DNA of 64,000 bases from an uncultured Candidatus Saccharibacteria bacterium. GTDB taxonomy: Bacteria > Patescibacteriota > Minisyncoccia > Phycocordibacterales > EsbW-18. Below, one piece after another: positions 7,348 to 31,144 of this stretch. The position numbers and the translations under genes were made by a program. Location: positions 185,727 through 249,726 of the forward strand of contig CAYUSN010000001.1 of NCBI GenBank assembly GCA_964447415.1. The letters run 5' to 3'. The notes below the pieces were generated by a model. The model did not search any database. It was not told the DNA's origin and worked only from the letters and a program-made list of their open reading frames with translations. Numbering within the stretch: position 1 is the stretch's first letter; each line of letters starts with the position of its first letter.

Positions 7348-7352
7348 ATATG

Positions 7353-7424
7353 TGGGCATGCTAGGATTCGAACCTAGAACCGGCCGTGTATAAGACGGCT
7401 GCTCTACCGTTGAGCTACATGCCC
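7353..7424 (-). tRNA. tRNA with anticodon UAU (AUA-decoding isoleucine-type tRNA)
   Basis: Manual fold of reverse strand: acceptor GGGCATG/CATGCCC, D-arm GCTC-AACGGTA-GAGC, anticodon stem GCCGT/ACGGC with loop CTTATAC (U33-UAU-A37), T-arm CTAGG-TTCGAAT-CCTAG, discriminator A; CCA not encoded. Confidence 0.65.
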
Positions 7425-17272: not shown

Positions 17273-17381
17273 CAGTGCTTCGCCGGTTCAAGCCCGGCAA
17301 CGACAGTCGTTTCCTTCGGGGGGCGGCTGTTTTTCTTTATTGAGAAAAACCGGCAATTTTGGTATAGTCCACGTTGCAAAC

Positions 17382-17455
17382 GCGCGTGTAGCTCAGCTGG
17401 TTAGAGCACGTCACTGATAATGACGAGGCCGAAGGTTCGAGTCCTTCCACGCGCA
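17382..17455 (+). tRNA. tRNA-Ile (anticodon GAU)
   Basis: Cloverleaf: GCGCGTG/CACGCGC acceptor, D-arm GCTC-AGCTGGTTA-GAGC, anticodon loop CTGATAA, T-arm GAAGG-TTCGAGT-CCTTC, discriminator A. Confidence 0.85.
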
Positions 17456-17479
17456 CAAAACGAAGTTTGAGTATAAGAA

Positions 17480-17510
17480 AACGGGCGACCTTTTGAGGGG
17501 TCGCCCGTGA
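17480..17510. terminator. Bidirectional intrinsic terminator (aaaacgggcgaccttttgaggggtcgcccgtgaaa)
   Basis: 8-bp GC stem with flanking A/T runs between tRNA-Ile and convergent gene. Confidence 0.6.
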
Positions 17511-17530
17511 AATCAACTGCGATTCACTGC

Positions 17531-18790
17531 TTACGGAGCCGTTGCGCTCCAGATGCCGGTGTCTCCGAGTTCGAAGCCGTCGGCGAAGATGCGTCCGATG
17601 CCGTGGATGTACCCGGCACCTGCATCGACCCCGTCGATATCCGAGTAAGGGGCGCCGCCGGCGAAGTTGCCACCGTAGGCTGCCGACGACCAACCGTTGC
17701 GGTAGTCGGTGTCAACGTCGGCAGGAATGATTTCCTGCGCGAACGACCACGGGTTCGTGGCTTCCTGCAGGAAAAGCATCCATCTGCCGGCGTTGTTCGT
17801 GCCGGGGATGTCGCGCCACGCCTCACCAACGAGTGCCTGGTGGGCATTGAGCGCGACGGACCATCCAAACTGCGCCCCTGCCTGCGGCACGGGTGCGGCG
17901 AGTGCTTGTTCCAGCGTCCAGCCGTTGCCATCCTGATGGATGACAACGCTGTAGGCGGCACCTCGACTGTCGTCGGGTTGCAATCCGGATTCTCCCGGGG
18001 CGCCGAGCAGGACACGTCGTCCGCTCGCGGAGACAGCGAAGCCGAGTTTGTAGGCGCCGTTGATGACGCCTTTGAAGCTCTGCCCCCACTGGTTCGTTCC
18101 TCCCAAGTTCTGCTTGAAGAGGAAGAACGAACCCATCCATGAGATGTTGCCGCTGTAGTCCAACGGAGCAGTGGCGACGAGCCACTGGTTTCCGATGAAC
18201 GCGAGACCGAAGCCCGCATACGAATCGGCCGGGTTAGCGATGTTGAGGAAGGTAAGCTTCTTACCTTCCCAGCCGCCGGCGGTGTCCCAGTAAACGTTCA
18301 CCTTCCCGTGCGGGAAGGCGCCACAGGCGGCGCTGGTGCCGCTCTTGGAGACCGCGACCGACTGGCCGCTTTCGTCACCTGCGACGGCGTGCGCATCTTC
18401 CAGTGCGGCATCGAAGGTGTAGTCTCCGTCGCTGCCGTTGAAGACGTAGCACCGGCCGGCGTTCGCGCCGAGCGTGTCGTCGTAGGGCGCGCCCACGATG
18501 AGGCGCGCGCAATCCGGAGACACGGCGAGCGCTTCGCCGAAGCGAGCACCGCCTTGGGCACCCGGATAGAAGACCTCGTCGATGAGGTCCGTGCCACGGT
18601 ATACCGCGACGGAACCGGAGGCGGCGTCGTACGGACGACCGACGAAGGACAGACCGTCGCACTTCGCGACGGACTTCCCGAAGTTCTCGCCCGGGAAGGG
18701 CGAGGGGTGCGGGAGCGCGGTGGGTTCCACCGCGCTCAGGGGCGCCGCGAGAATCGCGAGCGCCATGAAGGTCCAGCGGGCGATTCTCAT
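17531..18790 (-). CDS. Secreted FG-GAP repeat (integrin-alpha-like beta-propeller) protein
   Basis: Signal peptide MRIARWTFMALAILAAPLSA; repeated FG...SVA...G...D(L)IVGAP...G motifs (ENFGKSVA, ARFGEALAVSPDCARLIVGAPYDD, AQFGWSVAL...LVGEAWRD); start moved to MRIARW; high GC3. Confidence 0.6.
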   Translation of the reverse strand: MRIARWTFMALAILAAPLSAVEPTALPHPSPFPGENFGKSVAKCDGLSFVGRPYDAASGSVAVYRGTDLIDEVFYPGAQGGARFGEALAVSPDCARLIVGAPYDDTLGANAGRCYVFNGSDGDYTFDAALEDAHAVAGDESGQSVAVSKSGTSAACGAFPHGKVNVYWDTAGGWEGKKLTFLNIANPADSYAGFGLAFIGNQWLVATAPLDYSGNISWMGSFFLFKQNLGGTNQWGQSFKGVINGAYKLGFAVSASGRRVLLGAPGESGLQPDDSRGAAYSVVIHQDGNGWTLEQALAAPVPQAGAQFGWSVALNAHQALVGEAWRDIPGTNNAGRWMLFLQEATNPWSFAQEIIPADVDTDYRNGWSSAAYGGNFAGGAPYSDIDGVDAGAGYIHGIGRIFADGFELGDTGIWSATAP

Positions 18791-18965
18791 GGCGACTAAC
18801 TTCCTTTCTCCGTCTATCGACGGTGCCTGCATGAATCGTTATGAATCGTTGTTGATTGTAAATCTGCGTCTGGTAACATCCTATCAGAATAAACATGAAT
18901 TGTCAAGAGTTCTGAGCGGGAAAAAGGTACGTTTTTTAGGGCATATTTGGTACTATGCTCTTGTC

Positions 18966-19047
18966 GGGCACGTGGCGGAATTGGTATACGCGTACGCTTC
19001 AGGAGCGTATGTCGCAAGACTTGAGGGTTCGAGTCCCTCCGTGCCCA
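18966..19047 (+). tRNA. tRNA-Leu (anticodon CAG), type II with long variable arm
   Basis: GGGCACG/CGTGCCC acceptor, anticodon stem TACGC/GCGTA with loop TTCAGGA, 13-nt variable arm, T-arm GAGGG-TTCGAGT-CCCTC, discriminator A. Confidence 0.8.
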
Positions 19048-19048
19048 C

Positions 19049-20176
19049 ATGAGATCCCTTTTTCGATTTCTTCGCGCCAAACGCTTTGCCTACGAGCCGC
19101 TGGTAACGGTTGAGGTTTCACGCAAAAACATTCTAAAAAACCTTGAGATGTTTCTTGAGCATGTCTCGCCGTGGGGTGTTGCGCCGGTGCTGAAGGCAAA
19201 TGCATACGGACACGGACTTATTGAAGTCGCGCGTATTGTTGATGCACACGCACATGTGCCGTTTGTGGTGGTTGATTCGTACTATGAAGCACTCCGGCTT
19301 CGTAACGAGCACGTCACGTCGCCGATTCTCGTCATCGGACACACGCTCTCACACAACATCAAAAAAAACACGATGCATGGCATTTCGTTTTCCGTCGGAT
19401 CGCTGCACCAATTGAAAGAAATCGCGGAGACGAACGCGCCGGTGTCCGTACATCTGAAGTTTGACACCGGTATGCATCGGCAGGGAATTATGCCGAAAGA
19501 ACTTTCACGTGCGGTTGAAATTGTCGCGTCACACCCGCATCTGCATGTGGAAGGCATCTGCTCGCACCTTGCGGACGCCGACGGTGATGATGAGATACTG
19601 ACGACGGCGCAAATAAAACTCTGGAATGATATCGCATCGAAGTGGCGGAAGGCGTTTTCACAGACGAAGTATTTTCATCTGTCGGCGACCGCGGGCGTTC
19701 GACTTGCCGGAAAGATTGACGCGAATGTGGGAAGGCTCGGCATCGGACTGTACGGCATTTCAGATGTGATTCCCGGTCTTGCCCCCGCACTTTCTATGAA
19801 AACCTCCGTCACAGGATTGCGAACCATACAGAAGGGGGAGCGTGTCGGGTACGGTTTTTCATGGACGGCGGCGCGCGACACACGTGTGGCAACAATCCCT
19901 GTCGGCTACTACGAAGGTATTGACCGCCGGCTTTCAAACAAAGGGTTCGTGCGCGTGCGCGGAAAAGAGTGTCCGATTATCGGACGAGTATCGATGAACA
20001 TGACAACTGTTGATGTCACGGACGTACCCGATGTAAAAGAAGGAGACGGAGTGGAAGTCATAAGTACGAAATTCGAAGCACGAAATTCGATTACATACAT
20101 GGCGGAGCTGTGCGACACAATCCCGTACGATATTTTGGTGCACATTCCGTCTGCACTTCGACGCACGGTCATCTGA
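19049..20176 (+). CDS. alr: Alanine racemase
   Basis: PLP-lysine motif VLKANAYGHG near N-terminus and overall alanine racemase architecture (N-terminal TIM barrel, C-terminal beta domain with YxxG...M). Confidence 0.85.
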   Translation: MRSLFRFLRAKRFAYEPLVTVEVSRKNILKNLEMFLEHVSPWGVAPVLKANAYGHGLIEVARIVDAHAHVPFVVVDSYYEALRLRNEHVTSPILVIGHTLSHNIKKNTMHGISFSVGSLHQLKEIAETNAPVSVHLKFDTGMHRQGIMPKELSRAVEIVASHPHLHVEGICSHLADADGDDEILTTAQIKLWNDIASKWRKAFSQTKYFHLSATAGVRLAGKIDANVGRLGIGLYGISDVIPGLAPALSMKTSVTGLRTIQKGERVGYGFSWTAARDTRVATIPVGYYEGIDRRLSNKGFVRVRGKECPIIGRVSMNMTTVDVTDVPDVKEGDGVEVISTKFEARNSITYMAELCDTIPYDILVHIPSALRRTVI

Positions 20177-20810: not shown

Positions 20811-22097
20811 ATGGGAACACTCGACTTTGCACGGCACATTCACTTCATCGGCATCGGCGGAATCGGTGTCTCCGCGCTTGCCCGTTTGATGAAACACCAC
20901 GGGAAACATGTTTCCGGTTCCGACCGAGACATGACGCGGTTGACGCGTGAGCTTGAACGAGAAGGTATCCGTGTGCGTCCCGGACATGACGAACACCACG
21001 TGCCGCTGTTTGCTGATTTTATTGTGCATTCACCGGCGATTCCGTCTGATAATCCTGAACTGATGAAGGCGCGCGAACTCGGAATTCCCTCAATGTCGTA
21101 TCCCGAAGCGCTCGGCGCGGTGACACGTGACACGTTTACGGTTGCTGTATCGGGCACGCATGGAAAGACCACAACGACAGCAATGCTCGCTGAAGTTCTC
21201 AAGGAAAGTGTCAATCCGACGGTTATCGTGGGTTCACTGCTTTCCGGAGGCCGCAGTAACTTTGTCGCGGGTCATCCGAAGCGTTTTGTGGTGGAGGCGT
21301 GCGAATACAAACGCTCATTCCTCAACTTGCATCCTGACATTCTCGTCATCACCAATATTGATGAGGATCACCTCGACTACTACCGCGACTTGGAGGACAT
21401 CAAGAGCGCCTTTCGTGAGATGGTGCAAAAGGTTCCCGTATACGGCGCCGTTGTGTGTGACCTCTCCGACCCGAATATTGCAGATGTTGTGTCTGAGAGC
21501 CGCGCACCCATCATCAACTACATGGCGTTTTATGACGATGCGCGCAAACTCTCGGTATTTGGCGAGCACAATTTGCGCAACGCGGCCGCGGCGCACGCGG
21601 TTGCCGACTATTTCAATATTCCGGAGACAGAGGTAAACCGTGCACTCTTGAAATTTACCGGCACATGGCGCCGGAGTGAGTACAAAGGACGTACAACGCG
21701 TGGTGCAGACGTGTATGACGACTACGCGCATCACCCGAGAGAGATCCGCACGACACTCTCAGGTTTCAGAAAGCGATATCCCGATAAAAACCTGGTCGTC
21801 GCGTTTCAACCGCACCTCTATTCGCGCACAAAGACGCTCTTTGATGATTTTATCGACAGTTTTCACAACGCCGACCGGCTACTGCTCGCCCCGATTTACG
21901 CGGCACGCGAAGCGTATGACCCGACCATCTCGCACCACCAACTCGGTGATGCGATACGAGAGTATGGCGGCCGCGTTGAATCGTACGAAACACTGCACGC
22001 GCTGTCACACGAGCTCGCGCGCGGACTCACCCAGGATGACATTGTCATCACGATGGGTGCGGGTGATATCTACACAGTCGGCGAGAAACTTTTGTAA
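20811..22097 (+). CDS. murC: UDP-N-acetylmuramate--L-alanine ligase MurC
   Basis: IHFIGIGGIGVSALA N-terminal Rossmann motif, GTHGKTTTTAML P-loop, Mur ligase middle/C domains; ORF-track start at 20802 is TTG, first in-frame ATG (MGTLDF) used. Confidence 0.85.
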   Translation: MGTLDFARHIHFIGIGGIGVSALARLMKHHGKHVSGSDRDMTRLTRELEREGIRVRPGHDEHHVPLFADFIVHSPAIPSDNPELMKARELGIPSMSYPEALGAVTRDTFTVAVSGTHGKTTTTAMLAEVLKESVNPTVIVGSLLSGGRSNFVAGHPKRFVVEACEYKRSFLNLHPDILVITNIDEDHLDYYRDLEDIKSAFREMVQKVPVYGAVVCDLSDPNIADVVSESRAPIINYMAFYDDARKLSVFGEHNLRNAAAAHAVADYFNIPETEVNRALLKFTGTWRRSEYKGRTTRGADVYDDYAHHPREIRTTLSGFRKRYPDKNLVVAFQPHLYSRTKTLFDDFIDSFHNADRLLLAPIYAAREAYDPTISHHQLGDAIREYGGRVESYETLHALSHELARGLTQDDIVITMGAGDIYTVGEKLL

Positions 22098-22187
22098 ACG
22101 TATTGCAGGAAATACTTGACACCTCCTATTTTTTGGAGTATTTTCCTGACAGAGCTTGGTCTTCAAACAACGAAACGGAGGCAACAA

Positions 22188-22871
22188 ATGTTCGAGCATC
22201 TCCCGTCGTTCTACAGCGATTTGCATTGGAAGCGGACCGGTTTCTTCTCGAAGCTCCTGCTTTTCATCATGGCGGTTCTGAAGTTCGTGCCGGAGGCATT
22301 GCTCTTCGGCGCCATCTCGGCTCTCGTGTCGTTCTCGAGCACGACGTACAGCATCGCGGGGACGATGGACGCGAAGTTCAAGGAAGTGGGCGAGAGTGGT
22401 GGTATCCCGGCTTTCTCGGTGTGGTTCTGGGGTCCACTCATGATTGTGTGCGGGATTCTCGCATTCGTCTCTGCACTTGTTGTAGTGATTTTCAAGTCAT
22501 TCCTGACCGCGAATCAGTGCGACGTCGTATCGCGGATTCTGCAGAAGAGTCGGTTGCGCGCCCTTGCGACACTTGTTGTCCAGGAAGGCATCTGGCGAAA
22601 CCCACAGGAACACACGGAAGCGTTTCTACGCATCCGTGCCATCGTGATGAATTCCTACAAGGAAGCGGCGCTTCCTGCGCTTTATGAAATCGAAGCCAAG
22701 GCCAAGGATTTTTCCGACAGGAAGCAGATGGTTCGCGTCTACAAGCAGCTCGCCGAAGCGTACACCTCATACGGCGATGAGAGGAGCGCCCGTAGGACTC
22801 TCGGGTATGCGCGTGCTCTCGGTGAGGAGTTGGATCTCGATGATCAGTTGCTCAAGACATACGTCGTCTAA
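22188..22871 (+). CDS. Hypothetical membrane protein (2-3 TM) with C-terminal helical/TPR-like soluble region
   Basis: ACGGAGG SD before MFEHLPS; hydrophobic helices; high GC3; followed by terminator hairpin ~22885-22915. Confidence 0.45.
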   Translation: MFEHLPSFYSDLHWKRTGFFSKLLLFIMAVLKFVPEALLFGAISALVSFSSTTYSIAGTMDAKFKEVGESGGIPAFSVWFWGPLMIVCGILAFVSALVVVIFKSFLTANQCDVVSRILQKSRLRALATLVVQEGIWRNPQEHTEAFLRIRAIVMNSYKEAALPALYEIEAKAKDFSDRKQMVRVYKQLAEAYTSYGDERSARRTLGYARALGEELDLDDQLLKTYVV

Positions 22872-22938
22872 CCTCCGTTCGTTTCGCGCCCCGCGAGGAT
22901 TCCTCGCGGGGCGTTTCGGTTTCATGTATAGTGCCCGT

Positions 22939-23634
22939 ATGACAAGTGAAATACTCGGAACGCTTTACGTGGTGGGAACGCCGATAGGCAACTTGGAAGA
23001 CGTGACGCTCCGCGCGTTGCGCATTTTGAAAGAGGCGGACGTTATTTTCTGCGAAGACACGCGCGTAACGAAGCGCCTGCTGGATAAGTACGACATTCAC
23101 ACACGCACGACATCTTTGAATGCGCGCACCGAACACGCAAAAATCGGCTCAGTGATGGGAGCACTAACTGAGGGGAAGAAGGTTGCGCTCGTCTCTGATG
23201 CAGGAACGCCGGGCGTATCGGACCCGGGCGGGCTCGTGGTGTCAGTCGTTCGGGAGAAAATGCCGGATGTTCGCATTGAAGTTATTCCCGGTCCTTCGGC
23301 GCTCACTGCAGCGCTCTCCATTGCAAGCGTGCCCGTTGCGGATTTTGTGTTCTTAGGGTTTTTGCCGCACAAAAAAGGACGCCAAACACTCTTCAAAGAG
23401 ATTGCGGAGAGTAAGCGCGCGATGATTTTCTATGAATCACCGCACCGCATTATGAAGACACTCGCCTCGCTTAGAGATGTGTTAGAAGACGACAGAATCG
23501 TCGGTATCGCACGCGAACTAACGAAAATTTACGAAGAAATCGTCCGCGGCAGCGCCACAGAGGTGCTTTCATACTTCGAAACGAACAAGGAAAAACAGAA
23601 GGGGGAGTTTGTGGTGATTGTCTCCGGAAAATAA
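22939..23634 (+). CDS. rsmI: 16S rRNA (cytidine1402-2'-O)-methyltransferase RsmI (tetrapyrrole methylase fold)
   Basis: GTLYVVGTPIGNLEDVTLRALRIL...DVIFCEDTR...ESPHR motifs; start at MTSEILG (alternative MYSARM at 22924). Confidence 0.8.
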   Translation: MTSEILGTLYVVGTPIGNLEDVTLRALRILKEADVIFCEDTRVTKRLLDKYDIHTRTTSLNARTEHAKIGSVMGALTEGKKVALVSDAGTPGVSDPGGLVVSVVREKMPDVRIEVIPGPSALTAALSIASVPVADFVFLGFLPHKKGRQTLFKEIAESKRAMIFYESPHRIMKTLASLRDVLEDDRIVGIARELTKIYEEIVRGSATEVLSYFETNKEKQKGEFVVIVSGK

Positions 23635-23702
23635 AGAGAGGCAGGCTTTTTTGCCCTGTTTTGCACTACCATGCCCGCATAATTCGTGCGATACTACTGC
23701 GC

Positions 23703-23903
23703 ATGCAGAAGGCACAGACACGCATAATTATCATCACCGGAGCGGCACTCGCACTCTTGCAGGTACTCGGTATTCCGCTGTCATGGAAGTTGTGGCTTTC
23801 TTCTGCAATCGGGTTATTTTTTATCGGATGGGGGCTGTACCTCCGATACGGCCGCAGAACAGCGCATGACCAACCGCATGACGACACACACATCACACAA
23901 TAA
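23703..23903 (+). CDS. Small 2-TM membrane protein, hypothetical
   Basis: Within ORF 23661..23903; hydrophobic helices IIIITGAALALLQVLGI and SSAIGLFFIGWGLYL; start uncertain. Confidence 0.3.
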   Translation: MQKAQTRIIIITGAALALLQVLGIPLSWKLWLSSAIGLFFIGWGLYLRYGRRTAHDQPHDDTHITQ

Positions 23904-25236
23904 AAAACGTTTTTCAATTTCACCTGTTTTTTTATGGGTGTCGTTGGGTGCAGTAGTGGTTTTGTTTCTCGGTTATTTTGTCGGTCCGTCAATTTTTTCC
24001 CACACCTATACGCAGACCGAAGTCACCGCTGAGGTACTCGCCGAAGAAATAGAAGAAGAAGACGTTCCGTCTGTCACACACCTTCCGACACCTGCCGCAG
24101 TTAAGGCAATTTACATGTCGCAGTGCGTCGCGGGGACGCCTTCGTTTCGCGACAAACTTATCACGCTCATTGATGACACGGAATTAAACGCGGTCATCAT
24201 CGACATAAAAGATTTCTCCGGAAAAATCGGATTTACCACCGATAATCCGGCACTTGCGCCGTCGGTGTCGGATGCGTGCGGTGCGCGTGATATGAAGGAA
24301 TTTATAAAACGGCTTCACGACAAAAATATTTACGTTATCGGACGTATCACGGTATTCCAAGATCCGTTTTACTCGAAACTGCACCCTGAATTGGCGGTGA
24401 AAAAAGAAAGCGATACGTCGGTGGTATGGACCGATCACAAAGGACTTTCGTTTATTGATGTCGGGGCGCGGGCGTTTTGGGACTACATCGTGGAACTTTC
24501 CCGCGAATCGTACGCAATCGGATTCGATGAACTCAATTACGATTACGTGCGCTATCCGTCTGACGGCAACATGAAAGACATCGCCTTCACGCTCTCGGAA
24601 GGAAAACCGAAGGACGTCGAGTTGGAAGCATTTTTCTCGTATTTGTACGAGGCGCTTGATACGGGCGAGACGCCGACGTCGGGACTGCGCTCCGTTCGCA
24701 ACATGTTTAAGGGAGGGTCGGCCCGTCCCGTGCTGTCCGTTGATTTATTCGGCTACACCACGACAAATTATGACGATCTCGGCATCGGGCAGCTGCTTGA
24801 ACGCGCGCTTCCGTATTTCGATTACGTCATGCCGATGGTGTATCCGTCGCACTACAACTCGGGATTCATCGGTATCGCCAAACCGGCGACACAACCATAT
24901 GAGGTGGTGAAATATTCCATGGACGCCTCAGTTCGTCGCGTGCGGGCGCTCGCAGATGCAAAAAACTCCACCGCAACCTCAACGGATATGGTGTTTTTGC
25001 GGGAACAGGCAAACAAAGGACACGGCAATATTCACGTACAGCAGATGCGCCCGTGGCTGCAGGATTTTGATTTAGGAGCACAGTACACGCCGGAGATGGT
25101 GCGTGCGCAAATTCAAGCAACATATGACGCAGGGCTCACCTCATGGGCGCTGTGGGATGCAGGTAACACGTACACTCGTGCGGCGCTCGCAAACGAAGAG
25201 GAACCGCTTTCTTCTTTGACACCGGTTTCGCGATAG
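23866..25236 (+). CDS. Membrane-anchored putative glycoside hydrolase (TIM-barrel, DUF4015-like family)
   Basis: N-terminal TM anchor; conserved blocks NAVIIDIKD, IYVIGRITVFQDP, FDELNYDYVRYP, VMPMVYPSHY typical of the uncharacterised GH-like family. Confidence 0.5.
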   Translation: MTNRMTTHTSHNKKRFSISPVFLWVSLGAVVVLFLGYFVGPSIFSHTYTQTEVTAEVLAEEIEEEDVPSVTHLPTPAAVKAIYMSQCVAGTPSFRDKLITLIDDTELNAVIIDIKDFSGKIGFTTDNPALAPSVSDACGARDMKEFIKRLHDKNIYVIGRITVFQDPFYSKLHPELAVKKESDTSVVWTDHKGLSFIDVGARAFWDYIVELSRESYAIGFDELNYDYVRYPSDGNMKDIAFTLSEGKPKDVELEAFFSYLYEALDTGETPTSGLRSVRNMFKGGSARPVLSVDLFGYTTTNYDDLGIGQLLERALPYFDYVMPMVYPSHYNSGFIGIAKPATQPYEVVKYSMDASVRRVRALADAKNSTATSTDMVFLREQANKGHGNIHVQQMRPWLQDFDLGAQYTPEMVRAQIQATYDAGLTSWALWDAGNTYTRAALANEEEPLSSLTPVSR

Positions 25237-25296
25237 GGCACTGTGGTGTCAGATCATACAAAACCGTAGTTCAAACCGATGAGATCGGAGGAAACA

Positions 25297-25557
25297 ATGA
25301 TCGTCGTTTCGATTGAGCAGTACCGTGACTGTCAGAACAACCGTGCGTACGCACTCTCGTTACTGGAGGATCCCATCAGGATCTCCTTGTTGACGACGGG
25401 TTCCTGGGAGTCTCCGGCGGGATTGCCTGCCGACGTGCTCAGTTTCATCGCCGCTTCATATCGAGAGCGGGGGTGGAAGGTGACGTGGAAGAACGGCTCC
25501 AAGCGCATCCGCATCTGGCACCAGGAGAAGGTGTGCGTTACGCGCGCGAAGCGCTAA
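25297..25557 (+). CDS. Hypothetical small protein (86 aa), GC-rich ORFan
   Basis: GGAGGA SD 6 nt before ATG (MIVVSIEQ); within ORF 25279..25557. Confidence 0.35.
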   Translation: MIVVSIEQYRDCQNNRAYALSLLEDPIRISLLTTGSWESPAGLPADVLSFIAASYRERGWKVTWKNGSKRIRIWHQEKVCVTRAKR

Positions 25558-25766
25558 GGGTCGCGCTGAGCGGCGCGGGGTTTCTGTTTGCGCCGCTGCT
25601 GATCGTCACCGTCGCATGGTTTCTGTACGCACTATCCGTTGCGCTCGTCGCCGGTCTTACCGACACATCAGCAATGCTCTGGAAAGAGGCGCTTGGTCTC
25701 AAGGTTGTCTGGGTTATTGTCGCAGTGCGCGGACACCACAGGCTCAGGGCCGGGTGCCAAGAGTGA
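25473..25766 (+). CDS. Small 2-TM membrane protein, hypothetical (start uncertain; may begin at GTG ~25532)
   Basis: Overlaps 3' end of upstream gene in another frame; hydrophobic helices FLFAPLLIVTVAWFLYALSVALVAGL and VVWVIVAV. Confidence 0.3.
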   Translation: MEGDVEERLQAHPHLAPGEGVRYAREALRVALSGAGFLFAPLLIVTVAWFLYALSVALVAGLTDTSAMLWKEALGLKVVWVIVAVRGHHRLRAGCQE

Positions 25767-25904
25767 CCCCCGTTCTTTTCCAAGCCGTTCCTTCGGGGGC
25801 GGCTTGTTTATTACACAAACATTGACACCTTGCCTTTTTCGGTTTGAAAGAGTAAGGTGTTTTCCGGACAGGGTCTTTTTATATCTATACACGGAAAGGG
25901 GGTG

Positions 25905-26366
25905 ATGCCTCTGTCTGCTGTGCTGGTCACCAAACATGCCGTCGAGCGGTATGAGTACTGGCGCGACCTGCGGCATGAATACCTCGGCGAACAGCCGATT
26001 TCCTCCGTTCTGTCGTCAGAGGAGCAGATCGCTCTCATGACACTGCTCGCAGAGGAGTCGTCGGACATACCCGACCATGTCGTTCGCTGCCGGAAAGATC
26101 GGCACAATGGTGTGGATGTTCTGTATCTTGAGAACGACACGTACCGCATCGTGTGCCACTCAAACGGTTCTGTAGTGACTGTGTTTACGGTAGAACCGAA
26201 CACAGCGCACCACGACCCGCGTAGGTGGGCCGGTGTACCGCCGGCGCTAGCGCACACGGTGACCCATACGTGGCCGATCTACGTGCTGACGGGCGGCATC
26301 ATCAAAGTCGGGCGCAGGAGGCGTCCGACAAATGGAGCGCAACCCAAGGAGGAGGCACGGTGTTAG
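25905..26366 (+). CDS. Hypothetical protein (153 aa), GC-rich ORFan
   Basis: AAAGGGGG SD before MPLSAVL; within ORF 25857..26366. Confidence 0.4.
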   Translation: MPLSAVLVTKHAVERYEYWRDLRHEYLGEQPISSVLSSEEQIALMTLLAEESSDIPDHVVRCRKDRHNGVDVLYLENDTYRIVCHSNGSVVTVFTVEPNTAHHDPRRWAGVPPALAHTVTHTWPIYVLTGGIIKVGRRRRPTNGAQPKEEARC

Positions 26367-26668
26367 ACACCGACAACAAGTTTGCCGCAGTAGAGAAGGG
26401 TGATGTCGTGTTCCTGCAGGTAAGTCACAAGGACGGTAATGTGACCGCCTGCATGGAGCGCAACGGTTCGGTGCTGTACTGGGCGCACGAAACACCGGTA
26501 AGCATCGTGCGCACGGGCACAGAGACGTTCAAGGGCATCATGTGCCCGGAGGAGCTCAAGCGGGCGCTGATGTTCGTCGCACGTGCGTTCAACCTGCGCG
26601 GCGTCGAACCTCACGAGCCACCCGAAGCATTCAAGAAGACGGGGTGGGTCGCATTCCGGTTCGTCTGA
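26360..26668 (+). CDS. Hypothetical protein (102 aa), GC-rich ORFan, GTG start
   Basis: AGGAGGAGG SD then GTG overlapping upstream stop; followed by strong terminator (gcgccgggcaggtctgtag-ttt-acagaccggcccggcgcttttt, ~26690-26735). Confidence 0.4.
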   Translation: MLDTDNKFAAVEKGDVVFLQVSHKDGNVTACMERNGSVLYWAHETPVSIVRTGTETFKGIMCPEELKRALMFVARAFNLRGVEPHEPPEAFKKTGWVAFRFV

Positions 26669-26810
26669 GACGGCGCATCCGACAGAAGTCCGCGCCGGGC
26701 AGGTCTGTAGTTTACAGACCGGCCCGGCGCTTTTTCTTTTTTGTTTCTGTTTTATACTACACACAGCGCACCTGCATCTGTGCAGGTCATCAGTCTTTGA
26801 AATACAACCC

Positions 26811-28616
26811 ATGTCTCTTTACGATCCAAATCGCATCACGTACATCGGCGAGACCGATTACCGCAATAAGCGCGTGAAATTCGGCATCAAGGCGAAGGAT
26901 CGTCCGCGCCACATCTACGCCATCGGAAAGACCGGAACCGGTAAGTCAACGCTCTTGGAGAATATGGCGGTGCAGGATATTCAAAATGGCGAAGGGTTTG
27001 CATTTATCGACCCGCACGGAAAGTCGGCAGATTTGCTTCTCGACTACATTCCCAAAGAACGCGTTGACGACGTACTCTATTTTGCGCCGTTTGATCTGGC
27101 AAACCCGGTGTCGTTTAACGTTATGGAAGACGTCGGTCCTGATAAACGACATCTTGTTGCCGCAGGACTTATGTCGGCGTTCAAAAAAATCTGGGTGGAC
27201 GCGTGGAGCGCCCGCATGGAATACATCCTCAACAACACCATCCTTGCACTTCTTGAATATCCCGACTCCACCCTCTTGGGCGTGAACCGCATGCTTGTGG
27301 ACAAGGAGTACCGCAAAGATGTCGTTGCGCACGTCACCGATCCGGGCGTGAAAGCCTTCTGGGAGGGAGAGTTTGCCAACTACACAGACCGATTTGCGCA
27401 GGACGCGACGCCGGCGATTCAAAACAAGGTTGGGCAATTCACCGCAAACCCCGTTATCCGCAACATCATCGGACAGCCGAAGTCCACGTTCAACATCCGT
27501 GAAATCATGGACCAGAAAAAGATTCTCATCATCAACCTCTCAAAAGGGCAGGTGGGGGAAGATAGCGCCAACCTTTTGGGTTCCATGCTTATCACAAAAA
27601 TTTATCTGGCGGCAATGTCACGCGCCGACTTGCGCGAACAGGAACTCGGCAAGCTGCCGAACTTCTATCTCTATGTGGACGAATTTCAGTCATTCGCGAA
27701 CGAATCGTTTGCCGACATTTTGTCTGAAGCGCGAAAATACAAACTGAATCTCACGATTGCGCACCAATACATCGAGCAGATGAGCGATGAAGTGCGCGCG
27801 GCGGTGTTCGGCAACGTCGGCACGATGGTGTCGTACCGCGTCGGCGCCATTGACGCGGAGTATTTGGAAAAAGAATTTGCGCCGGCGTTTACCGCCGAAG
27901 ATCTCGTGAACATCGGCGCCTTTAAGATGTACCTGAAACTTATGATAGACGGCATGGCGTCAGCGCCGTTTTCTGCAAGCGGACTGCCGCCGATTAAACC
28001 GCCTTCGGTTTCGTACCGCGACGTGGTCATTGCCCATTCTCGCGCTCAGTTTTCCCGACCGCGCGCCGTGGTCGAAAATGAAATTCTTAAATGGCACCAG
28101 AAAGAATTCGGCAAAGGAGGCGGCGGGCGCAGCGACGAGTCGGAGCGCGCACGTCACGGGGGCCGCAGGGAAGATGCGCCGAGAGGCGAGCGGCCACGCG
28201 AGCAGAGGTCGGAACCTCGAAAAGATGATCGAAGAGCGGGCCAGAGGAACGATCGGAGAGAGGAAAAGCCTGCAGTTGACCGCGAGACACAACTTCGTCA
28301 GGCGGTGTCGCTTTCAAGTCTTAGACACAGCGATACCCCCCACAAACACAGACATAAAAGCGTGAAAAAAGACAAAGGACCGTCGCAGGCGCACCTTTCG
28401 GATTTGCGCTCGGCGCTTTCGGCGGTGTTGGGCGATGTGGCACAGACGGTTCCGATGCCGGAACCTCAAAAAACAGCTCCCGCGCCGCAGCAAAAACAGG
28501 AGCCGAAGAACGCACCGCAGGCAACCCAGGAACCGCAGGCAAAAAAACAGCACAAAGAAGTTCCCGAGCACGTACTCAAAGAACTCTTCAAACGCGAGGA
28601 AAAAAACGAAGGGTAA
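26811..28616 (+). CDS. FtsK/HerA/TraG-VirD4-superfamily P-loop ATPase (type-IV coupling-protein-like) with long basic disordered C-terminal tail
   Basis: Walker A AIGKTGTGKST, Walker B LYVDEFQSF, no N-terminal TM; C-terminal ~170 aa rich in R/E/K/Q/P; start moved to MSLYDPN (ORF-track start overlaps upstream terminator). Confidence 0.55.
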   Translation: MSLYDPNRITYIGETDYRNKRVKFGIKAKDRPRHIYAIGKTGTGKSTLLENMAVQDIQNGEGFAFIDPHGKSADLLLDYIPKERVDDVLYFAPFDLANPVSFNVMEDVGPDKRHLVAAGLMSAFKKIWVDAWSARMEYILNNTILALLEYPDSTLLGVNRMLVDKEYRKDVVAHVTDPGVKAFWEGEFANYTDRFAQDATPAIQNKVGQFTANPVIRNIIGQPKSTFNIREIMDQKKILIINLSKGQVGEDSANLLGSMLITKIYLAAMSRADLREQELGKLPNFYLYVDEFQSFANESFADILSEARKYKLNLTIAHQYIEQMSDEVRAAVFGNVGTMVSYRVGAIDAEYLEKEFAPAFTAEDLVNIGAFKMYLKLMIDGMASAPFSASGLPPIKPPSVSYRDVVIAHSRAQFSRPRAVVENEILKWHQKEFGKGGGGRSDESERARHGGRREDAPRGERPREQRSEPRKDDRRAGQRNDRREEKPAVDRETQLRQAVSLSSLRHSDTPHKHRHKSVKKDKGPSQAHLSDLRSALSAVLGDVAQTVPMPEPQKTAPAPQQKQEPKNAPQATQEPQAKKQHKEVPEHVLKELFKREEKNEG

Positions 28617-28658
28617 TTTTATCTTTCTTTCATAGAAGGTTTCGTACAGTGTGCGCAT

Positions 28659-29804
28659 ATGAGATACGCACTGTTTTTTATTTGTACCGCTGCGTGTACG
28701 CCGTTGTTTGCGCATGCGTCGGTTGTTATCAACGAGGTCGCATGGATGGGAACGGCGGTATCTGCAAACGACGAATGGATTGAGTTGTACAACGACGGCG
28801 CTGAGACAGTAGTGCTTGACGGGTGGGTGCTGAAAGGGGAGGACGGCACACCGAATATTGCGCTGTCCGGAACCGTCAACAGCGGTGACTATTTTTTATT
28901 GGAACGCACTGACGATGAAACAGTACCGAGTATTCCCGCGGACGTCATATATTCGGGAGCGCTCGGAAATGAAACCGAAAACCTTTCGCTTGTTGATGCT
29001 GGAGGCGCAATAATCGATTCGATACAGAGCGGAGAGAACTGGTCACTCGGCGGGGACAACACAACGAAACATACTGCACAACGGCAGGCAGACGGGTCGT
29101 GGATTACGGGAGTGCCGTCACCGCGCGCGGCAAACAGCACGGAAAACACGAAAACGGCGGAAACGCCAGGAGGGGAAGTTGCGGGAACAAGCACGAGCAA
29201 AAAAACTTCCGCAAAAACAACGGGTGGGTATACGCAAAAAGTGCATGCATATGCAGGTCAGGATTTTGAAACGGTCGCGGGGGCGTACGCGTTTTTTGAA
29301 GGGTACGGTGTTGATGAGAAGAGCGAACGTCTTGGTTTTGTGCGCTACACGTGGACGTTCGGTGACGGAGCCACGGGGCGCGGAGAAAGCATGCGTCATA
29401 TCTACCATTTTCCCGGCACGTACACCGCGGTGCTGTCGGTATCGGGAGAAAATCAAAAATCACGCGATAAGGTGATGGTTTCTGTTACGGAACCGCTTGT
29501 GGCGATACCGCATGTGGTGTACGGAGCGCGCGGCTATATCGCGGTGCGCAATGAAAGCGCACGTGAGCTTGATCTCTCGGGTTGGCGGTTGCGCCTCAAA
29601 TCCGAAACCAAAGACAGCGCGACATTTACCTTCCCGCACGCGACTTTGATTGCACCCCATACCACAATTCCGTTTCCGTCGGCGGTAACCGATATAAAGC
29701 CGAAAGATTCCGATAGAATTTCACTGATATTGCCCAATGGAAAAACAATCGCAAAATACGTGGGGTCCGCGTATGTTGCGCCCGATATTGAGAAAGAAAA
29801 ATAA
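28659..29804 (+). CDS. Secreted protein with N-terminal lamin-tail domain, central PKD domain and C-terminal LTD-like domain
   Basis: Signal peptide MRYALFFICTAACTPLFAHA; LTD motifs VVINEVAWMGT...NDEWIELYNDG...GWVLKG; PKD-like YTWTFGDGATG...GTYTAVLSVSG; second YIAVRNESARELDLSGWRLRL. Confidence 0.7.
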   Translation: MRYALFFICTAACTPLFAHASVVINEVAWMGTAVSANDEWIELYNDGAETVVLDGWVLKGEDGTPNIALSGTVNSGDYFLLERTDDETVPSIPADVIYSGALGNETENLSLVDAGGAIIDSIQSGENWSLGGDNTTKHTAQRQADGSWITGVPSPRAANSTENTKTAETPGGEVAGTSTSKKTSAKTTGGYTQKVHAYAGQDFETVAGAYAFFEGYGVDEKSERLGFVRYTWTFGDGATGRGESMRHIYHFPGTYTAVLSVSGENQKSRDKVMVSVTEPLVAIPHVVYGARGYIAVRNESARELDLSGWRLRLKSETKDSATFTFPHATLIAPHTTIPFPSAVTDIKPKDSDRISLILPNGKTIAKYVGSAYVAPDIEKEK

Positions 29805-29805
29805 T

Positions 29806-29946
29806 ATGCTGTGGGTGATTGCAATCGGGGTGCTTGGCGGTGTCTGTTTGGTACGTGCGGTGCACTATTTTGAAGCGCTCGAAAAAACACACGAGCCGTC
29901 GCTCTCCGACGGCATCGAAATCATAGAAGAGGATGTGTTAGGATGA
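29806..29946 (+). CDS. Putative 46-aa single-TM micro-protein
   Basis: ATG 1 nt after upstream stop; hydrophobic MLWVIAIGVLGGVCLV; low confidence. Confidence 0.25.
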   Translation: MLWVIAIGVLGGVCLVRAVHYFEALEKTHEPSLSDGIEIIEEDVLG

Positions 29947-29950
29947 AAGG

Positions 29951-31144
29951 GTGGAACCCAAACGAATCCTTATTTTTTCCCTTTTTTACGGTCCTTTTTG
30001 GGGCGGGGCGGAGCTTGCGGTGAAAGAAATCACCAACCGGATTGCACCTGAAGACATGGAATTTGACATGGTGACGCTCCGTGCGGACGCGAGTCTACCT
30101 GCAGTTGAAAAAGTCGGAAATATTACCGTGTATCGTATCGGTCCTTCAAAACACGGCATGACACACGAAGCACTGAAGCGTTTTCCGTGGTACTTCATCA
30201 AAGTGCTGTTTCCGGTGCTGGCTGCGCTTAAGGCAAAAAAACTTTCCAAAAAAAATACGTACAGCGCCATGTGGAGTCTTATGACGTACATGGGATTTCC
30301 CGCGGTTCTTGCTCGAATGTTCGGTTTTCGCGTGCCGTATGTGTTGACGTTGCAGGACGGGGACACGGTCGGGCATATCACCGACCGTGCGCGCATCAGG
30401 TTTGTGTTTCCGCTTCTGAAAAAAGTGTTCCGTGACGCGGCGCGCGTGCAGGTCATTTCAAACTACCTCGGCGTATTTGCAAAACACATGGGGTGTCGTG
30501 CGGATCCGGTGCTTATTCCCAACGGCGTAGATATCGCGCGGTTTACGAACGTTGACCGCGGTGACGTTGAAAAGGTTACCGCCGAACTTCACAAAAAAGA
30601 AGGCGAGTTGTTTCTGGTGACGACATCGCGTCTTGTTGAAAAAAACGGCATTGCCGACGTTATAGACGCACTCCACGATATTTCCGGCGTGCGGTTTCTT
30701 ATACTCGGTGACGGTCATCTGCGCGCGGCGCTGGAACAACGCGCGCGCGAGAAAAATGTCTCGGATAAGGTCGTTTTTCTCGGGCACATATCACCGGACA
30801 AAATCCCCACATATCTTCATGCGTCAGATATTTTTATCAGGGCCTCGCTTTCCGAAGGGTTGGGAAGCAGTTTTCTGGAAGCGATGTGTGCGGGACTACC
30901 GGTAATTGCAACGCCCGTCGGCGGTATCCCCGATTTTTTGTTTGACATAGAAGAGTACGGAGAAAAAGCAACAGGTGTCTTTTGTGAACCGAATAATCCC
31001 GAAAGTGTTGCGTTTGCGGTAAAACGATTAGTGCAGGACGCAGGCATGCGGCAAAGAATCTCAAAAAATGCTCGGAACATGGTACTTTCGTCGTACGATT
31101 GGGACGATATTGCCGTCCGGATGCGCGACGTGCTTACCGCTTGA
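29951..31144 (+). CDS. Glycosyltransferase family 4 (GT-B fold)
   Basis: C-terminal GT4 signature EGLGSSFLEAMCAGLPVIATPVGG. Confidence 0.8.
   Translation: MEPKRILIFSLFYGPFWGGAELAVKEITNRIAPEDMEFDMVTLRADASLPAVEKVGNITVYRIGPSKHGMTHEALKRFPWYFIKVLFPVLAALKAKKLSKKNTYSAMWSLMTYMGFPAVLARMFGFRVPYVLTLQDGDTVGHITDRARIRFVFPLLKKVFRDAARVQVISNYLGVFAKHMGCRADPVLIPNGVDIARFTNVDRGDVEKVTAELHKKEGELFLVTTSRLVEKNGIADVIDALHDISGVRFLILGDGHLRAALEQRAREKNVSDKVVFLGHISPDKIPTYLHASDIFIRASLSEGLGSSFLEAMCAGLPVIATPVGGIPDFLFDIEEYGEKATGVFCEPNNPESVAFAVKRLVQDAGMRQRISKNARNMVLSSYDWDDIAVRMRDVLTA

What the first reader, a model, noticed from the sequence alone, without database searches (positions are those of the whole stretch)
25279..29946. 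Candidate uncharacterised system: GC-rich four-gene operon, then a TraG/VirD4/HerA-like ATPase with basic tail, then a secreted LTD-PKD-LTD protein
A terminator-bounded operon of four small ORFans (25297-26668) is followed by a soluble P-loop NTPase (26811-28616). The NTPase has FtsK/HerA/TraG-type Walker A and B motifs (GKTGTGKST; LYVDEFQSF), no TM anchor and a ~170-aa Arg/Glu/Lys/Pro-rich disordered tail. Next comes a signal-peptide protein combining two lamin-tail domains with a PKD domain, then a tiny TM ORF. A DNA/protein-translocating ATPase next to an LTD surface protein is reminiscent of DNA-uptake or conjugation-like machinery, but with none of the usual partners (no VirB4/B6/pilin in the window).
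Basis: partly seen in the sequence, partly recalled or inferred. Interest (0 to 1): 0.7.

Follow-up and report, generated by a model that had tools for sequence, protein, structure and literature searches.

The report
Core orphan coupling-protein ATPase, unrelated neighbours
This stretch is not one new machine: at its centre is a soluble VirD4/TrwB-type motor ATPase that Paceibacteria (CPR bacteria) keep, extremely conserved, at the same chromosomal spot, and here it lies next to a small clade-specific cassette of four unknown genes and an optional secreted surface protein.

Summary
They do not form one system.

- **ORF cassette.** ORF1-4 (25297-26668) are two bicistrons separated by an internal terminator. 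They are GC-rich and under purifying selection. They occur only in the window's closest relatives, always in the variable gap between DUF4015 and the ATPase.
- **ATPase.** The gene (26811-28616) lies behind a conserved terminator and a conserved -10-like box. Sequence and fold place it in the VirD4/TrwB (type IV coupling protein, T4CP) and VirB4 branch of FtsK-HerA ATPases. It has no membrane segment. Its 171-residue disordered tail carries three conserved short helices.
- **Conservation.** The 430-residue ATPase domain is 71-94% identical in the 80 best of at least 586 species hits. In the same loci RsmI, DUF4015 and MurC have median identities of 58%, 47% and 44%. The gene order RsmI-DUF4015-ATPase-(LTD)-GT4-GT-GT4 is conserved.
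- **LTD protein.** The LTD-PKD-LTD protein follows the ATPase directly in only 20 of 71 informative loci.
- **Literature.** Orphan T4CP homologues, widespread in Patescibacteria and encoded away from virB4, were described in 2025. Their function is unknown.

My best reading is a housekeeping-grade, soluble hexameric translocase that its tail motifs recruit to partners. This is a new member of a known kind, of moderate interest.

The parts
25297..25557 (+). ORF1, 86 aa, no known family. Overlaps ORF2 by 25 nt.
   Evidence: Searches give the same gene call. A 57%-identical homologue lies at the same place in L002 and a 49%-identical one in L083. No family hit.
25533..25766 (+). ORF2, 77 aa, small hydrophobic (membrane) protein.
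   Evidence: 44% identical in L002 and 90% in L083. dN/dS against L083 is 0.22.
25781..25806 (+). Intrinsic terminator-like hairpin (11 bp, 7 GC) followed by TTTATT. It splits the cassette into two units.
   Evidence: -19.3 kcal/mol. In L083 an MFS transporter gene is inserted at this junction.
25905..26366 (+). ORF3, 153 aa ORFan with conserved H11, R15, Y16, W19, R63, H67 and a TVEP motif.
   Evidence: Only 3 proteins found in 5.8 billion. Weak homologues (31-37%) in L002, L005, L085 and L003, all at the same position. dN/dS 0.12. The AF2 model is unusable at pLDDT 43.
26360..26668 (+). ORF4, 102 aa ORFan. Its GTG start overlaps the ORF3 stop, so the two are probably translationally coupled.
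   Evidence: 29% homologue in L005/L085 and 90% in L083. dN/dS 0.11.
26692..26753 (+). Strong terminator hairpin (26692-26730) plus T-run. It closes the cassette and insulates the ATPase gene.
   Evidence: -41 kcal/mol for the region. The hairpin is kept through compensatory changes in L002, L005 and L004.
26751..26758 (+). Invariant TTTATACT (-10-like box) about 50 nt upstream of the ATPase start codon.
   Evidence: Invariant in four species, including L004, which has no ORF cassette. Promoter function is inferred, not shown.
26811..28100 (+). ATPase domain (residues 1-430) of the VirD4/TrwB-VirB4 branch. Walker A at 26925-26951, Walker B at 27669-27695, helical insertion at about residues 110-234.
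28101..28616 (+). Disordered basic tail (residues 431-601) with three conserved short helices: 28278-28325 (DRExE[LIV]RxAxSLxxL[KR]), 28374-28430 (KGP[ST]xxxLxxLRxALxAV[LI]) and 28557-28589 (EVPExVLKxLF).
   Evidence: Conservation profile over 118 homologues. AF2 predicts helices at 488-506, 526-540 and 586-598 in an otherwise sub-50 pLDDT tail.
28659..29804 (+). Secreted LTD-PKD-LTD protein, 42 nt after the ATPase stop with no terminator between them.
   Evidence: Pfam LTD 1.4e-21 and PKD_4 8e-12. Domain limits. No hairpin plus T-run in the gap. It is the first downstream gene in 20 of 71 loci.
29773..29946 (+). Small single-TM ORF (57 aa) overlapping the LTD gene's end. GT4 starts 4 nt after it.
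   Evidence: 54%-identical copies in L002, L005 and L085 only.
23866..25236 (+). Context: DUF4015 (putative glycoside hydrolase-like, N-terminal TM), the conserved upstream neighbour.
   Evidence: Pfam 5.5e-81. Upstream on the same strand in 50 of 70 informative loci within 2.5 kb (22 within 400 nt, 28 at 400-2500 nt); the gap ranges from 21 nt to 5.6 kb.
29951..31144 (+). Context: GT4 glycosyltransferase, first of the conserved GT4-GT-GT4 run and of a roughly 18-kb surface-glycan cluster.
   Evidence: Pfam. It is the first downstream gene in 27 of 71 loci and follows the LTD gene in most others. Polysaccharide-biosynthesis (flippase-type) and Wzy-like genes lie further on.

Best explanation
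The interval holds three independent things that lie side by side on the chromosome of a Paceibacteria (Parcubacteria, near 'Ca. Campbellbacteria') bacterium.

1. **ORF cassette.** A clade-specific, fast-evolving cassette of two small bicistrons (ORF1-ORF2 and ORF3-ORF4) occupies a gap between DUF4015 and the ATPase gene that varies across Paceibacteria. Its function is unknown. The overlapping ORF3-ORF4 pair, with conserved His and Arg residues in ORF3, could be a small toxin/immunity-like pair, but that is only a guess.

2. **ATPase.** This is a core, vertically inherited gene with its own conserved terminator and -10-like box.
 - Shown: it has an intact Walker A, Walker B and conserved Gln/Arg set, and a RecA-type nucleotide-binding domain with an all-alpha insertion, as in TrwB/VirD4 and VirB4. 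It lacks any membrane anchor.
 - Shown: it ends in a disordered tail with three conserved short helices.
 - Inferred: like its solved relatives it forms a hexameric ring that uses ATP to thread a polymer, most likely nucleic acid and possibly unfolded protein.
 - Inferred: because it is soluble, the tail helices recruit it to partners. The likeliest partner is the chromosomal Patescibacteria VirB4/VirB6-type apparatus encoded elsewhere in the genome. Alternatively the gene has been taken over for another housekeeping translocation step.

3. **LTD-PKD-LTD protein.** This Sec-exported surface protein is probably co-transcribed with the ATPase and the GT4 cluster. It is an optional member of the conserved gene order, not an obligate partner.
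For: **Family and fold**
- Pfam TrwB_AAD_bind 2.3e-6 and T4SS-DNA_transf 1e-4, both above cut-off.
- NCBIfam VirD4-like CD1115 family 4.9e-9 over residues 28-340.
- TrwB is the best PDB sequence hit at 1.7e-5.
- The AF2 domain is confident.
- Foldseek ranks TrwB first (3.6e-12, target TM 0.61-0.64), then Cag-beta, HerA and DotL.

**Catalytic residues.** K45, S46, D290, E291, Q319, R308 and R343 are invariant in 61 sequences.

**No membrane segment**.

**Core-gene behaviour**
- More than 8000 database homologues; every named hit among the best 120 is a Patescibacteria or unclassified-bacterium MAG.
- At least 586 species hits.
- Median domain identity is 74%, against 58% for RsmI, 47% for DUF4015, 44% for MurC and 41.5% for GT4 in the same loci.
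- The gene order is conserved.
- The window carries housekeeping genes (FtsH, RecG, MurC, SecA, GatB) and no VirB4, relaxase or paralogue.

**Independent transcription unit.** The terminator and TTTATACT box are conserved, also where no cassette exists.

**Tail motifs**.

**ORFans are clade-specific but real**.

**Literature (PMC12102498)**
- T4CP homologues occur in 2,918 of 3,035 Patescibacteria genomes; only 148 of 5,713 lie near virB4.
- Relaxases occur in 103 genomes.
- The authors state that exaptation cannot be ruled out.
Against: - No experiment exists on this family. Hexamer formation, the substrate and the partners are all inferred by homology.
- The tight, conserved arrangement ATPase-(LTD)-GT4-GT-GT4, with gaps of a few to tens of nt, could mean a role in cell-surface biogenesis rather than with a T4SS.
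- According to PMC12102498, the t4cp homologue of Ca. Southlakia epibionticum was not essential for epibiotic growth, whereas the T4SS genes were. That speaks against an obligatory T4SS role, at least for that paralogue, which is probably the long form.
- The 80 loci were chosen by ATPase similarity, which inflates its identity somewhat.
Confidence: 0.6

Rival explanations
1. One reading: ORF1-4, the ATPase, the LTD protein and the small TM ORF together form one new DNA-uptake or conjugation-like system.
For: - All genes are on one strand and close together.
- The ATPase belongs to a DNA- or protein-translocating clade.
- From memory, not tested here: LTD domains occur in extracellular nucleases and in some ComEC proteins. 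A weak ExeM match (0.0014) is.
Against: - ORF1-4 occur only in the nearest relatives.
- Two terminators and a conserved -10-like box separate them from the ATPase.
- An MFS gene splits the cassette in L083.
- The LTD gene is adjacent in only 20 of 71 loci.
- The ATPase is retained everywhere without these neighbours.
Confidence: 0.04
2. The ATPase works with its conserved operon neighbours (LTD surface protein, GT4-GT-GT4, DUF4015) in cell-envelope biogenesis. For example, it could power export or assembly of a glycosylated surface protein or polymer.
For: - GT4 or the LTD gene starts within about -28 to +62 nt of the ATPase stop in most loci, and no terminator follows the ATPase here.
- DUF4015 lies upstream on the same strand within 2.5 kb in 50 of 70 loci.
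- The window continues into a surface-glycan cluster with polysaccharide-biosynthesis (flippase-type) and Wzy-like genes.
- The LTD protein has a Ser/Thr/Lys-rich linker that could be glycosylated (inference).
Against: - From memory: no VirD4/VirB4-clade ATPase is known to act in glycan or Sec-substrate export.
- The LTD protein has its own Sec-type signal peptide.
- The conserved order also includes MurC and RsmI, so it may simply be frozen gene order in streamlined genomes.
- In about a third of loci the downstream genes differ or lie on the other strand, yet the ATPase stays equally conserved.
Confidence: 0.13
3. The ATPase is a HerA-like helicase used in DNA repair or anti-phage defence (HerA-NurA, HerA-Sir2, HerA-DUF4297, DptH or MADS type).
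For: - PADLOC mad8 6.7e-14 and HerA 3e-7.
- DUF87 gives a weak hit below its cut-off.
Against: - No nuclease, Sir2, DUF4297 or Dnd/MADS partner lies in the conserved neighbourhood.
- Extreme conservation and fixed synteny are the opposite of defence-island behaviour.
- T4CP profiles score better than HerA profiles.
- No separate HAS-barrel domain appears in the model, only two short N-terminal strands.
Confidence: 0.06
4. The ORF cassette is a remnant of a mobile element or prophage that brought the ATPase with it.
For: - The cassette's GC content is 6-7 points above its surroundings.
- Distant relatives of the ATPase exist in SPO1-like Bacillus phages.
Against: - The ATPase is present at the same locus in lineages without the cassette.
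- Three of the ORFans (ORF1, ORF3, ORF4; ORF2 was not scanned) have no relatives in viral contigs, and none of the four matches a PHROG.
- No integrase and no tRNA gene lies at the site; flanking repeats were not searched for.
Confidence: 0.03

Closest known systems
TrwB / VirD4 type IV coupling proteins (T4CP; PDB 1E9R, 8DOL, 6SZ9)
   Same: - Walker A/B RecA-like nucleotide-binding domain with an all-alpha insertion.
- Best sequence-profile and Foldseek matches.
- A variable C-terminal extension. From memory: TraD's C-terminal tail binds TraM.
   Different: - No N-terminal transmembrane domain.
- No relaxase or T4SS genes nearby.
- About 15% identity to TrwB.
- A core chromosomal gene with 71-94% conservation across the 80 best-matching species loci, rather than a fast-evolving plasmid or ICE gene.
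Orphan VirD4-type T4CP homologues of Patescibacteria (Quinonero-Coronel et al. 2025, PMC12102498)
   Same: This protein is one of them. They are reported in 2,918 of 3,035 genomes, almost always far from virB4, mostly without relaxases, and with possible exaptation. NCBI names its homologues 'type IV secretion system DNA-binding domain-containing protein'.
   Different: The passages of that paper read here do not mention several things seen in this analysis:
- the TM-less short architecture;
- the three conserved tail motifs;
- the very high conservation;
- the DUF4015-ATPase-(LTD)-GT4 gene order.
CPR 'long form' (TM + DUF8128/PF26449 + ATPase) and SPO1-like Bacillus phage proteins (CP-51 gp91, PHROG 5156)
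   Same: - The ATPase domain is about 50% identical to the CPR long forms and about 25% identical to the phage proteins.
- PHROG 5156 matches at 9e-57.
   Different: - The long forms carry an N-terminal TM helix plus a roughly 350-residue DUF8128 domain. They are typical of Saccharimonadia, Berkelbacteria and Microgenomates.
- The phage proteins have the DUF8128-like domain (1e-18) but no TM helix.
- The Paceibacteria protein lacks this module. No DUF8128-like ORF exists in the window or within about 10 kb of the ATPase in 81 loci.
- The tail motifs were not seen in the three long forms with complete C-termini that I inspected by eye.
VirB4 C-terminal ATPase domain (PDB 4AG5) and DptH/DndH C-domain (7ES4)
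   Different: - There is no VirB4 N-terminal domain.
- The VirB4 NCBIfam models match only the P-loop at E above 0.02.
- There is no Dnd context.
Bacterial lamin-tail-domain (LTD) / PKD surface proteins
   Same: The downstream protein has two LTDs and a PKD domain above the Pfam cut-offs, plus a signal peptide.
   Different: - It carries no catalytic (nuclease) or ComEC domain.
- Identity to its positional counterparts is only 22-38% outside the close relatives.
- Only PKD-LTD is shared in distant loci.

Membership tests
Type IV coupling protein (VirD4/TrwB/TraD) | P-loop nucleotide-binding domain with Walker A, Walker B and conserved Gln/Arg | tested here: met
   GKTGTGKST at residues 39-47 and VDEFQ at 289-293. 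K45, S46, D290, E291, Q319, R308 and R343 are invariant in 61 homologues.
Type IV coupling protein (VirD4/TrwB/TraD) | All-alpha domain inserted in the nucleotide-binding domain, and overall TrwB-like fold | tested here: met
Type IV coupling protein (VirD4/TrwB/TraD) | N-terminal transmembrane anchor | tested here: not met
   The ATPase domain starts at residue about 5 and homologues align from residue 1-9. The maximum 19-residue hydropathy is 1.12. From memory: some Gram-positive T4CPs, such as TraJ of pIP501, also lack it.
Type IV coupling protein (VirD4/TrwB/TraD) | Genetic linkage to a T4SS (VirB4, VirB6) and/or a relaxase | tested here: not met
   None found among the ten largest ORFs or the neighbouring genes scanned in the 64-kb window, and none among the genes labelled within about 10 kb in 80 species loci. 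Whether a T4SS exists elsewhere in this genome is not testable here. PMC12102498 reports VirB4 in 80% of Patescibacteria genomes.
Type IV coupling protein (VirD4/TrwB/TraD) | Hexameric ring with a central channel; substrate (DNA or effector) recruitment | not testable with these tools
   Only a monomer model was available.
NCBIfam curated T4CP equivalogs (TraD SXT, TOL TraD, CD1115 VirD4-like, CedD) | Score above the curated whole-protein cut-off | tested here: not met
   Best scores are 45.9 bits against a cut-off of 366 (SXT_TraD) and 35.5 against 250 (CD1115 family).
HerA helicase | Pfam DUF87/HerA above cut-off, N-terminal HAS-barrel, nuclease partner (NurA or a defence effector) | tested here: not met
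   DUF87 scores 19.2 bits, below its 23.2 cut-off. Only two short N-terminal strands are predicted. No nuclease or effector was seen among the conserved neighbours labelled.
FtsK/SpoIIIE DNA translocase | FtsK_SpoIIIE motor domain and gamma domain | tested here: not met
Lamin-tail-domain / PKD surface protein (downstream gene) | LTD and PKD Pfam domains above cut-off, plus a signal peptide | tested here: met
   LTD 77.3 bits (cut-off 34.3) in two stretches, and PKD_4 45.5 bits (cut-off 27). The signal peptide was judged by eye from the sequence.
Single operon or co-conserved gene system (the claim in the finding) | Co-occurrence of the components across genomes and one transcription unit | tested here: not met
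   ORF1-4 occur only in the nearest relatives. Terminators lie at 25781-25806 and 26692-26730, and the -10-like box is conserved. The LTD gene is first downstream in 20 of 71 loci.

The most novel reading that the evidence does not exclude
The soluble, ultra-conserved ATPase could be the cytoplasmic motor that pulls host-derived nucleic acid (RNA or DNA) into Paceibacteria cells. In this reading its three tail helices dock it onto the T4SS or pilus conduit. This would be a T4CP working in reverse as an importer, which would explain why the gene is near-universal, relaxase-independent and under housekeeping-grade constraint. A 2026 preprint (10.64898/2026.06.21.733656) reports that a cultivated member of the phylum feeds on host RNA and states that the uptake mechanism is unresolved. 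My evidence neither supports nor excludes this reading.
Probability: 0.1. Interest if true: 0.85.

Novelty: new member of a known kind. Interest (0 to 1): 0.35.

Why it matters
Patescibacteria make up a large share of bacterial diversity and depend on hosts for nucleotides and lipids. How they move macromolecules across their envelope is an open question.

The ATPase here belongs to the orphan T4CP homologues that a 2025 survey found in 96% of their genomes, with no assigned role. The comparative data add four concrete handles:
- a TM-less Paceibacteria form;
- three conserved tail peptides that look like docking motifs;
- conservation higher than that of MurC or RsmI in the same loci;
- a fixed position at the head of a surface-glycan operon.

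These make the protein a well-defined target for interaction screens and biochemistry.

Tried and rejected
- **ORF3 structure.** An AF2 model built from a 3-sequence alignment reached only pLDDT 43 and was not used for a fold search.
- **ORFan sequence searches.** PDB sequence or profile searches with ORF1, ORF3 and ORF4 gave nothing below E 0.4. Pfam, NCBIfam, PADLOC and PHROGs gave nothing significant.
- **Viral contigs.** Scans for ORF1, ORF3 and ORF4 found no relatives.
- **Metagenome scan.** A scan with an ORF3 profile found only one further locus, of the same clade and arrangement as L005.
- **Split long form.** I asked whether the Paceibacteria ATPase is a split version of the long form, with TM+DUF8128 encoded nearby. 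A profile of 32 N-terminal regions hit nothing in the window or in 81 loci.
- **Membrane-targeting helix.** I asked whether the C-terminal motif EVPExVLKxLF is a MinD/FtsA-like membrane-targeting helix. Its amphipathic moment is moderate (0.55) but its net charge is -1, unlike known targeting helices, which were recalled from memory. This is unsupported.
- **FtsK replacement.** Literature searches gave nothing usable, and the rest of the genome is not available. Not testable here.
- **Promoter hit.** The sigma-70-like match at 26797-26825 straddles the ATPase start codon and is taken as spurious.
- **afdb50.** The Foldseek afdb50 library was not available.
- **Upstream-neighbour script.** My ORF-based script for classifying upstream neighbours picked up antisense ORFs. 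It was replaced by tblastn coordinates.


Full report
**What is there.** The window is a chromosomal, housekeeping stretch of a CPR/Patescibacteria genome. It carries FtsH, RecG, MurC, RsmI, SecA, GatB and a long surface-glycan cluster. Its nearest relatives are 'Ca. Campbellbacteria'/Paceibacterota MAGs.

Inside the reported interval the gene models are:
- ORF1 25297-25557 (86 aa)
- ORF2 25533-25766 (77 aa, hydrophobic)
- ORF3 25905-26366 (153 aa)
- ORF4 26360-26668 (102 aa)
- ATPase 26811-28616 (601 aa)
- LTD-PKD-LTD protein 28659-29804 (381 aa)
- small TM ORF 29773-29946

GT4 follows at 29951. An independent gene caller on public contigs gives the same models.

**Check of the observation.** Most of the description holds.
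- The ORF1-4 block has 58.2% GC, against 51.6% for the window and 51-52.5% for the flanking genes.
- The Walker motifs are as quoted.
- The ATPase has no hydrophobic segment: the maximum 19-residue hydropathy is 1.12.
- Its last 171 residues are R/E/K/P-rich with net charge +10, and mostly below pLDDT 50.
- The downstream protein has LTD 20-122, PKD 206-276 and LTD 281-367, behind a signal-peptide-like N-terminus.

The 'terminator-bounded four-gene operon' is wrong in one respect. A good intrinsic terminator (25781-25806) lies between ORF2 and ORF3, and a second, stronger one (26692-26730 plus T-run) follows ORF4. None precedes ORF1. The cassette is therefore two overlapping gene pairs. In relative L083 an MFS transporter gene sits exactly between them.

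**The four ORFans.**
- None matches Pfam, NCBIfam, PADLOC or PHROGs. ORF1, ORF3 and ORF4 were also searched against solved structures and gave nothing.
- ORF3 finds only three proteins among 5.8 billion: itself and two relatives at 84% and 72%.
- Weak homologues (29-57%) of ORF1-4 exist only in the loci whose ATPase is closest to the window's (85-94% identical): L002, L003, L005/L085 and L083. They always lie between DUF4015 and the ATPase, and membership varies: ORF4 is missing in L002 and ORF1 in L005.
- They are real genes. dN/dS against L083 is 0.22, 0.12 and 0.11 for ORF2, ORF3 and ORF4, compared with 0.05 for DUF4015.
- No relatives of ORF1, ORF3 or ORF4 were found in viral contigs.
- Across Paceibacteria the DUF4015-to-ATPase gap ranges from 21 nt to 5.6 kb and holds different, unrelated genes in different clades.

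The cassette is therefore a clade-specific occupant of a variable spot. ORF3 keeps conserved His and Arg residues and is translationally coupled to ORF4. A small toxin/immunity pair is a guess that I could not test, because the AF2 model reached only pLDDT 43.

**The ATPase: family.**
- Pfam TrwB_AAD_bind (2.3e-6) and T4SS-DNA_transf (1e-4) pass their cut-offs. TraG-D_C and DUF87 fall just below theirs.
- NCBIfam gives only sub-threshold T4CP matches. The longest is the Firmicutes VirD4-like CD1115 family (4.9e-9, residues 28-340).
- TrwB is the best solved relative by sequence (1.7e-5, residues 30-326).
- An AF2 model built from 61 homologues is confident over residues 1-430.
- Foldseek ranks TrwB first (3.6e-12, target TM 0.61-0.64 over about 415 columns), then Cag-beta, HerA and DotL.

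The fold therefore places the protein in the VirB4/VirD4 branch of FtsK-HerA ATPases, and sequence profiles favour the coupling-protein side. The catalytic residues are invariant. Two defining T4CP features are not met: there is no N-terminal membrane anchor, and no T4SS or relaxase lies nearby.

**The ATPase: a core gene.**
- The protein search hit its ceiling of 8000 homologues. Every named hit among the best 120 is a Patescibacteria or unclassified-bacterium MAG.
The best 80 are 71-94% identical over 430 residues.
- In the same loci the median identities are RsmI 58%, DUF4015 47%, MurC 44%, GT4 41.5% and LTD 27%. The loci were ranked by ATPase similarity, which biases this comparison somewhat.
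- The order RsmI-DUF4015-ATPase-(LTD)-GT4-GT-GT4, with MurC further upstream in many loci, recurs across the set.
- DUF4015 lies upstream on the same strand within 2.5 kb in 50 of 70 informative loci.
- The first downstream gene is GT4 in 27, the LTD-PKD gene in 20 and something else in 24 of 71 loci.
- The terminator hairpin (with compensatory changes) and an invariant TTTATACT about 50 nt before the start codon are conserved in four species. One of them has no cassette. The ATPase gene therefore starts its own transcription unit.
- No terminator separates it from the LTD gene.

**Tail and architecture.** Over 118 homologues the tail is variable except for three islands:
- DRExE[LIV]RxAxSLxxL[KR] (residues 490-505)
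- KGP[ST]xxxLxxLRxALxAV[LI] (522-540)
- EVPExVLKxLF (583-593)

These coincide with the only three helices AF2 predicts in the tail. A search of 1.84 billion representatives found 5,990 clusters at E<=1e-30 and two architectures.
- The short form seen here has the ATPase domain at the N-terminus.
- A long form carries one TM helix plus a roughly 350-residue DUF8128 (PF26449) domain in front of the ATPase. It is found in Saccharimonadia, Berkelbacteria and Microgenomates.
- SPO1-like Bacillus phage proteins (CP-51 gp91; PHROG 5156, 9e-57) share both domains of the long form.
- No DUF8128-like ORF lies in the window or near the ATPase in 81 loci.

**Literature.** Quinonero-Coronel et al. 2025 (PMC12102498) found VirD4-type T4CP homologues in 2,918 of 3,035 Patescibacteria genomes. 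Only 148 of the 5,713 homologues lie near virB4. VirB4 occurs in 2,417 genomes and relaxases in 103. The authors note that the Southlakia t4cp was not essential and that exaptation cannot be excluded. The existence of these orphan homologues is therefore known; their function is not. A 2026 preprint reports host-RNA feeding by a cultivated member of the phylum, with the uptake route unresolved.

**Mechanism.**
- Shown: the catalytic site is intact, the fold is TrwB/VirB4-like, the protein is soluble, the tail motifs are conserved, the gene has core-gene behaviour, and a conserved terminator and -10-like box precede it.
- Inferred from the solved relatives (TrwB, HerA, FtsK): a hexameric ring that threads nucleic acid or unfolded protein using ATP.
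- Inferred from the architecture: the tail helices replace a membrane anchor by docking the motor onto partners. The most plausible partner is the chromosomal Patescibacteria T4SS encoded elsewhere. Otherwise the gene has been taken over for another essential translocation step.

I put about 0.6 on this composite. Within it, the claim that the interval is not one system is far more certain than the substrate or the partner. The main rival (0.13) is a role with its operon neighbours in surface biogenesis.

**Verdict.** This is a new member of a known kind. Interest is moderate (0.35), carried by the unexplained, housekeeping-grade conservation of an orphan coupling-protein-like motor in a phylum whose macromolecule import is an open question.

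Noticed in passing
window 7352-7424 (-) and 17382-17456 (+): A tRNA-Ile with anticodon UAU occurs besides the usual tRNA-Ile(GAU). A UAU isoleucine tRNA is unusual in bacteria and may mean that AUA is decoded without the TilS/lysidine route.
   Followed up: no
window 17001-19050: A GC-rich stretch (0.61 against 0.52) holds an FG-GAP-repeat protein gene (17531-18832, minus strand). It sits between tRNA-Ile(GAU) and tRNA-Leu(CAG), which is an island-like placement.
   Followed up: no
window 20831-23635 versus L002 3957-6761: The MurC-TM protein-RsmI segment is 92.9% identical in DNA to 'Ca. Campbellbacteria' AMX-MBFR-44. Everything downstream (DUF4015, ATPase, LTD) is only 71-76% identical, with a sharp break at the end of rsmI. 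This could be recent recombination between lineages or a chimeric MAG.
   Followed up: partly
window 26692-26758; L002, L005 and L004 upstream of the ATPase: The terminator hairpin is kept through compensatory base changes, followed by an invariant TTTATACT about 50 nt before the ATPase start. A further small hairpin (about 26768-26790) lies just before the start codon in the window.
   Followed up: partly
L084 (Bacillus phage CP-51) 2825-5560: SPO1-like Bacillus phages encode a 911-aa hypothetical protein (gp91; PHROG 5156). It shares both the DUF8128-like N-terminal domain (1e-18) and the ATPase (3e-33) with the membrane-anchored CPR long form. This two-domain family, spanning CPR bacteria and Firmicutes phages, has no assigned function.
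   Followed up: partly
loci L002-L081, interval between DUF4015 and the ATPase: The interval varies from 21 nt to 5.6 kb. It holds unrelated clade-specific genes, for example a Mur-ligase-like 440-460-aa family in L008, L012, L067 and L079, and a 140-153-aa family in L015, L043 and L045. It looks like a recurrent insertion spot.
   Followed up: partly
window 22116-22871 and 22684-23634: The 251-aa TM protein ORF overlaps the long upstream extension of the RsmI ORF. The true rsmI start is probably near 22950. The TM protein is 99.6% identical in L002 and absent from all other loci.
   Followed up: no
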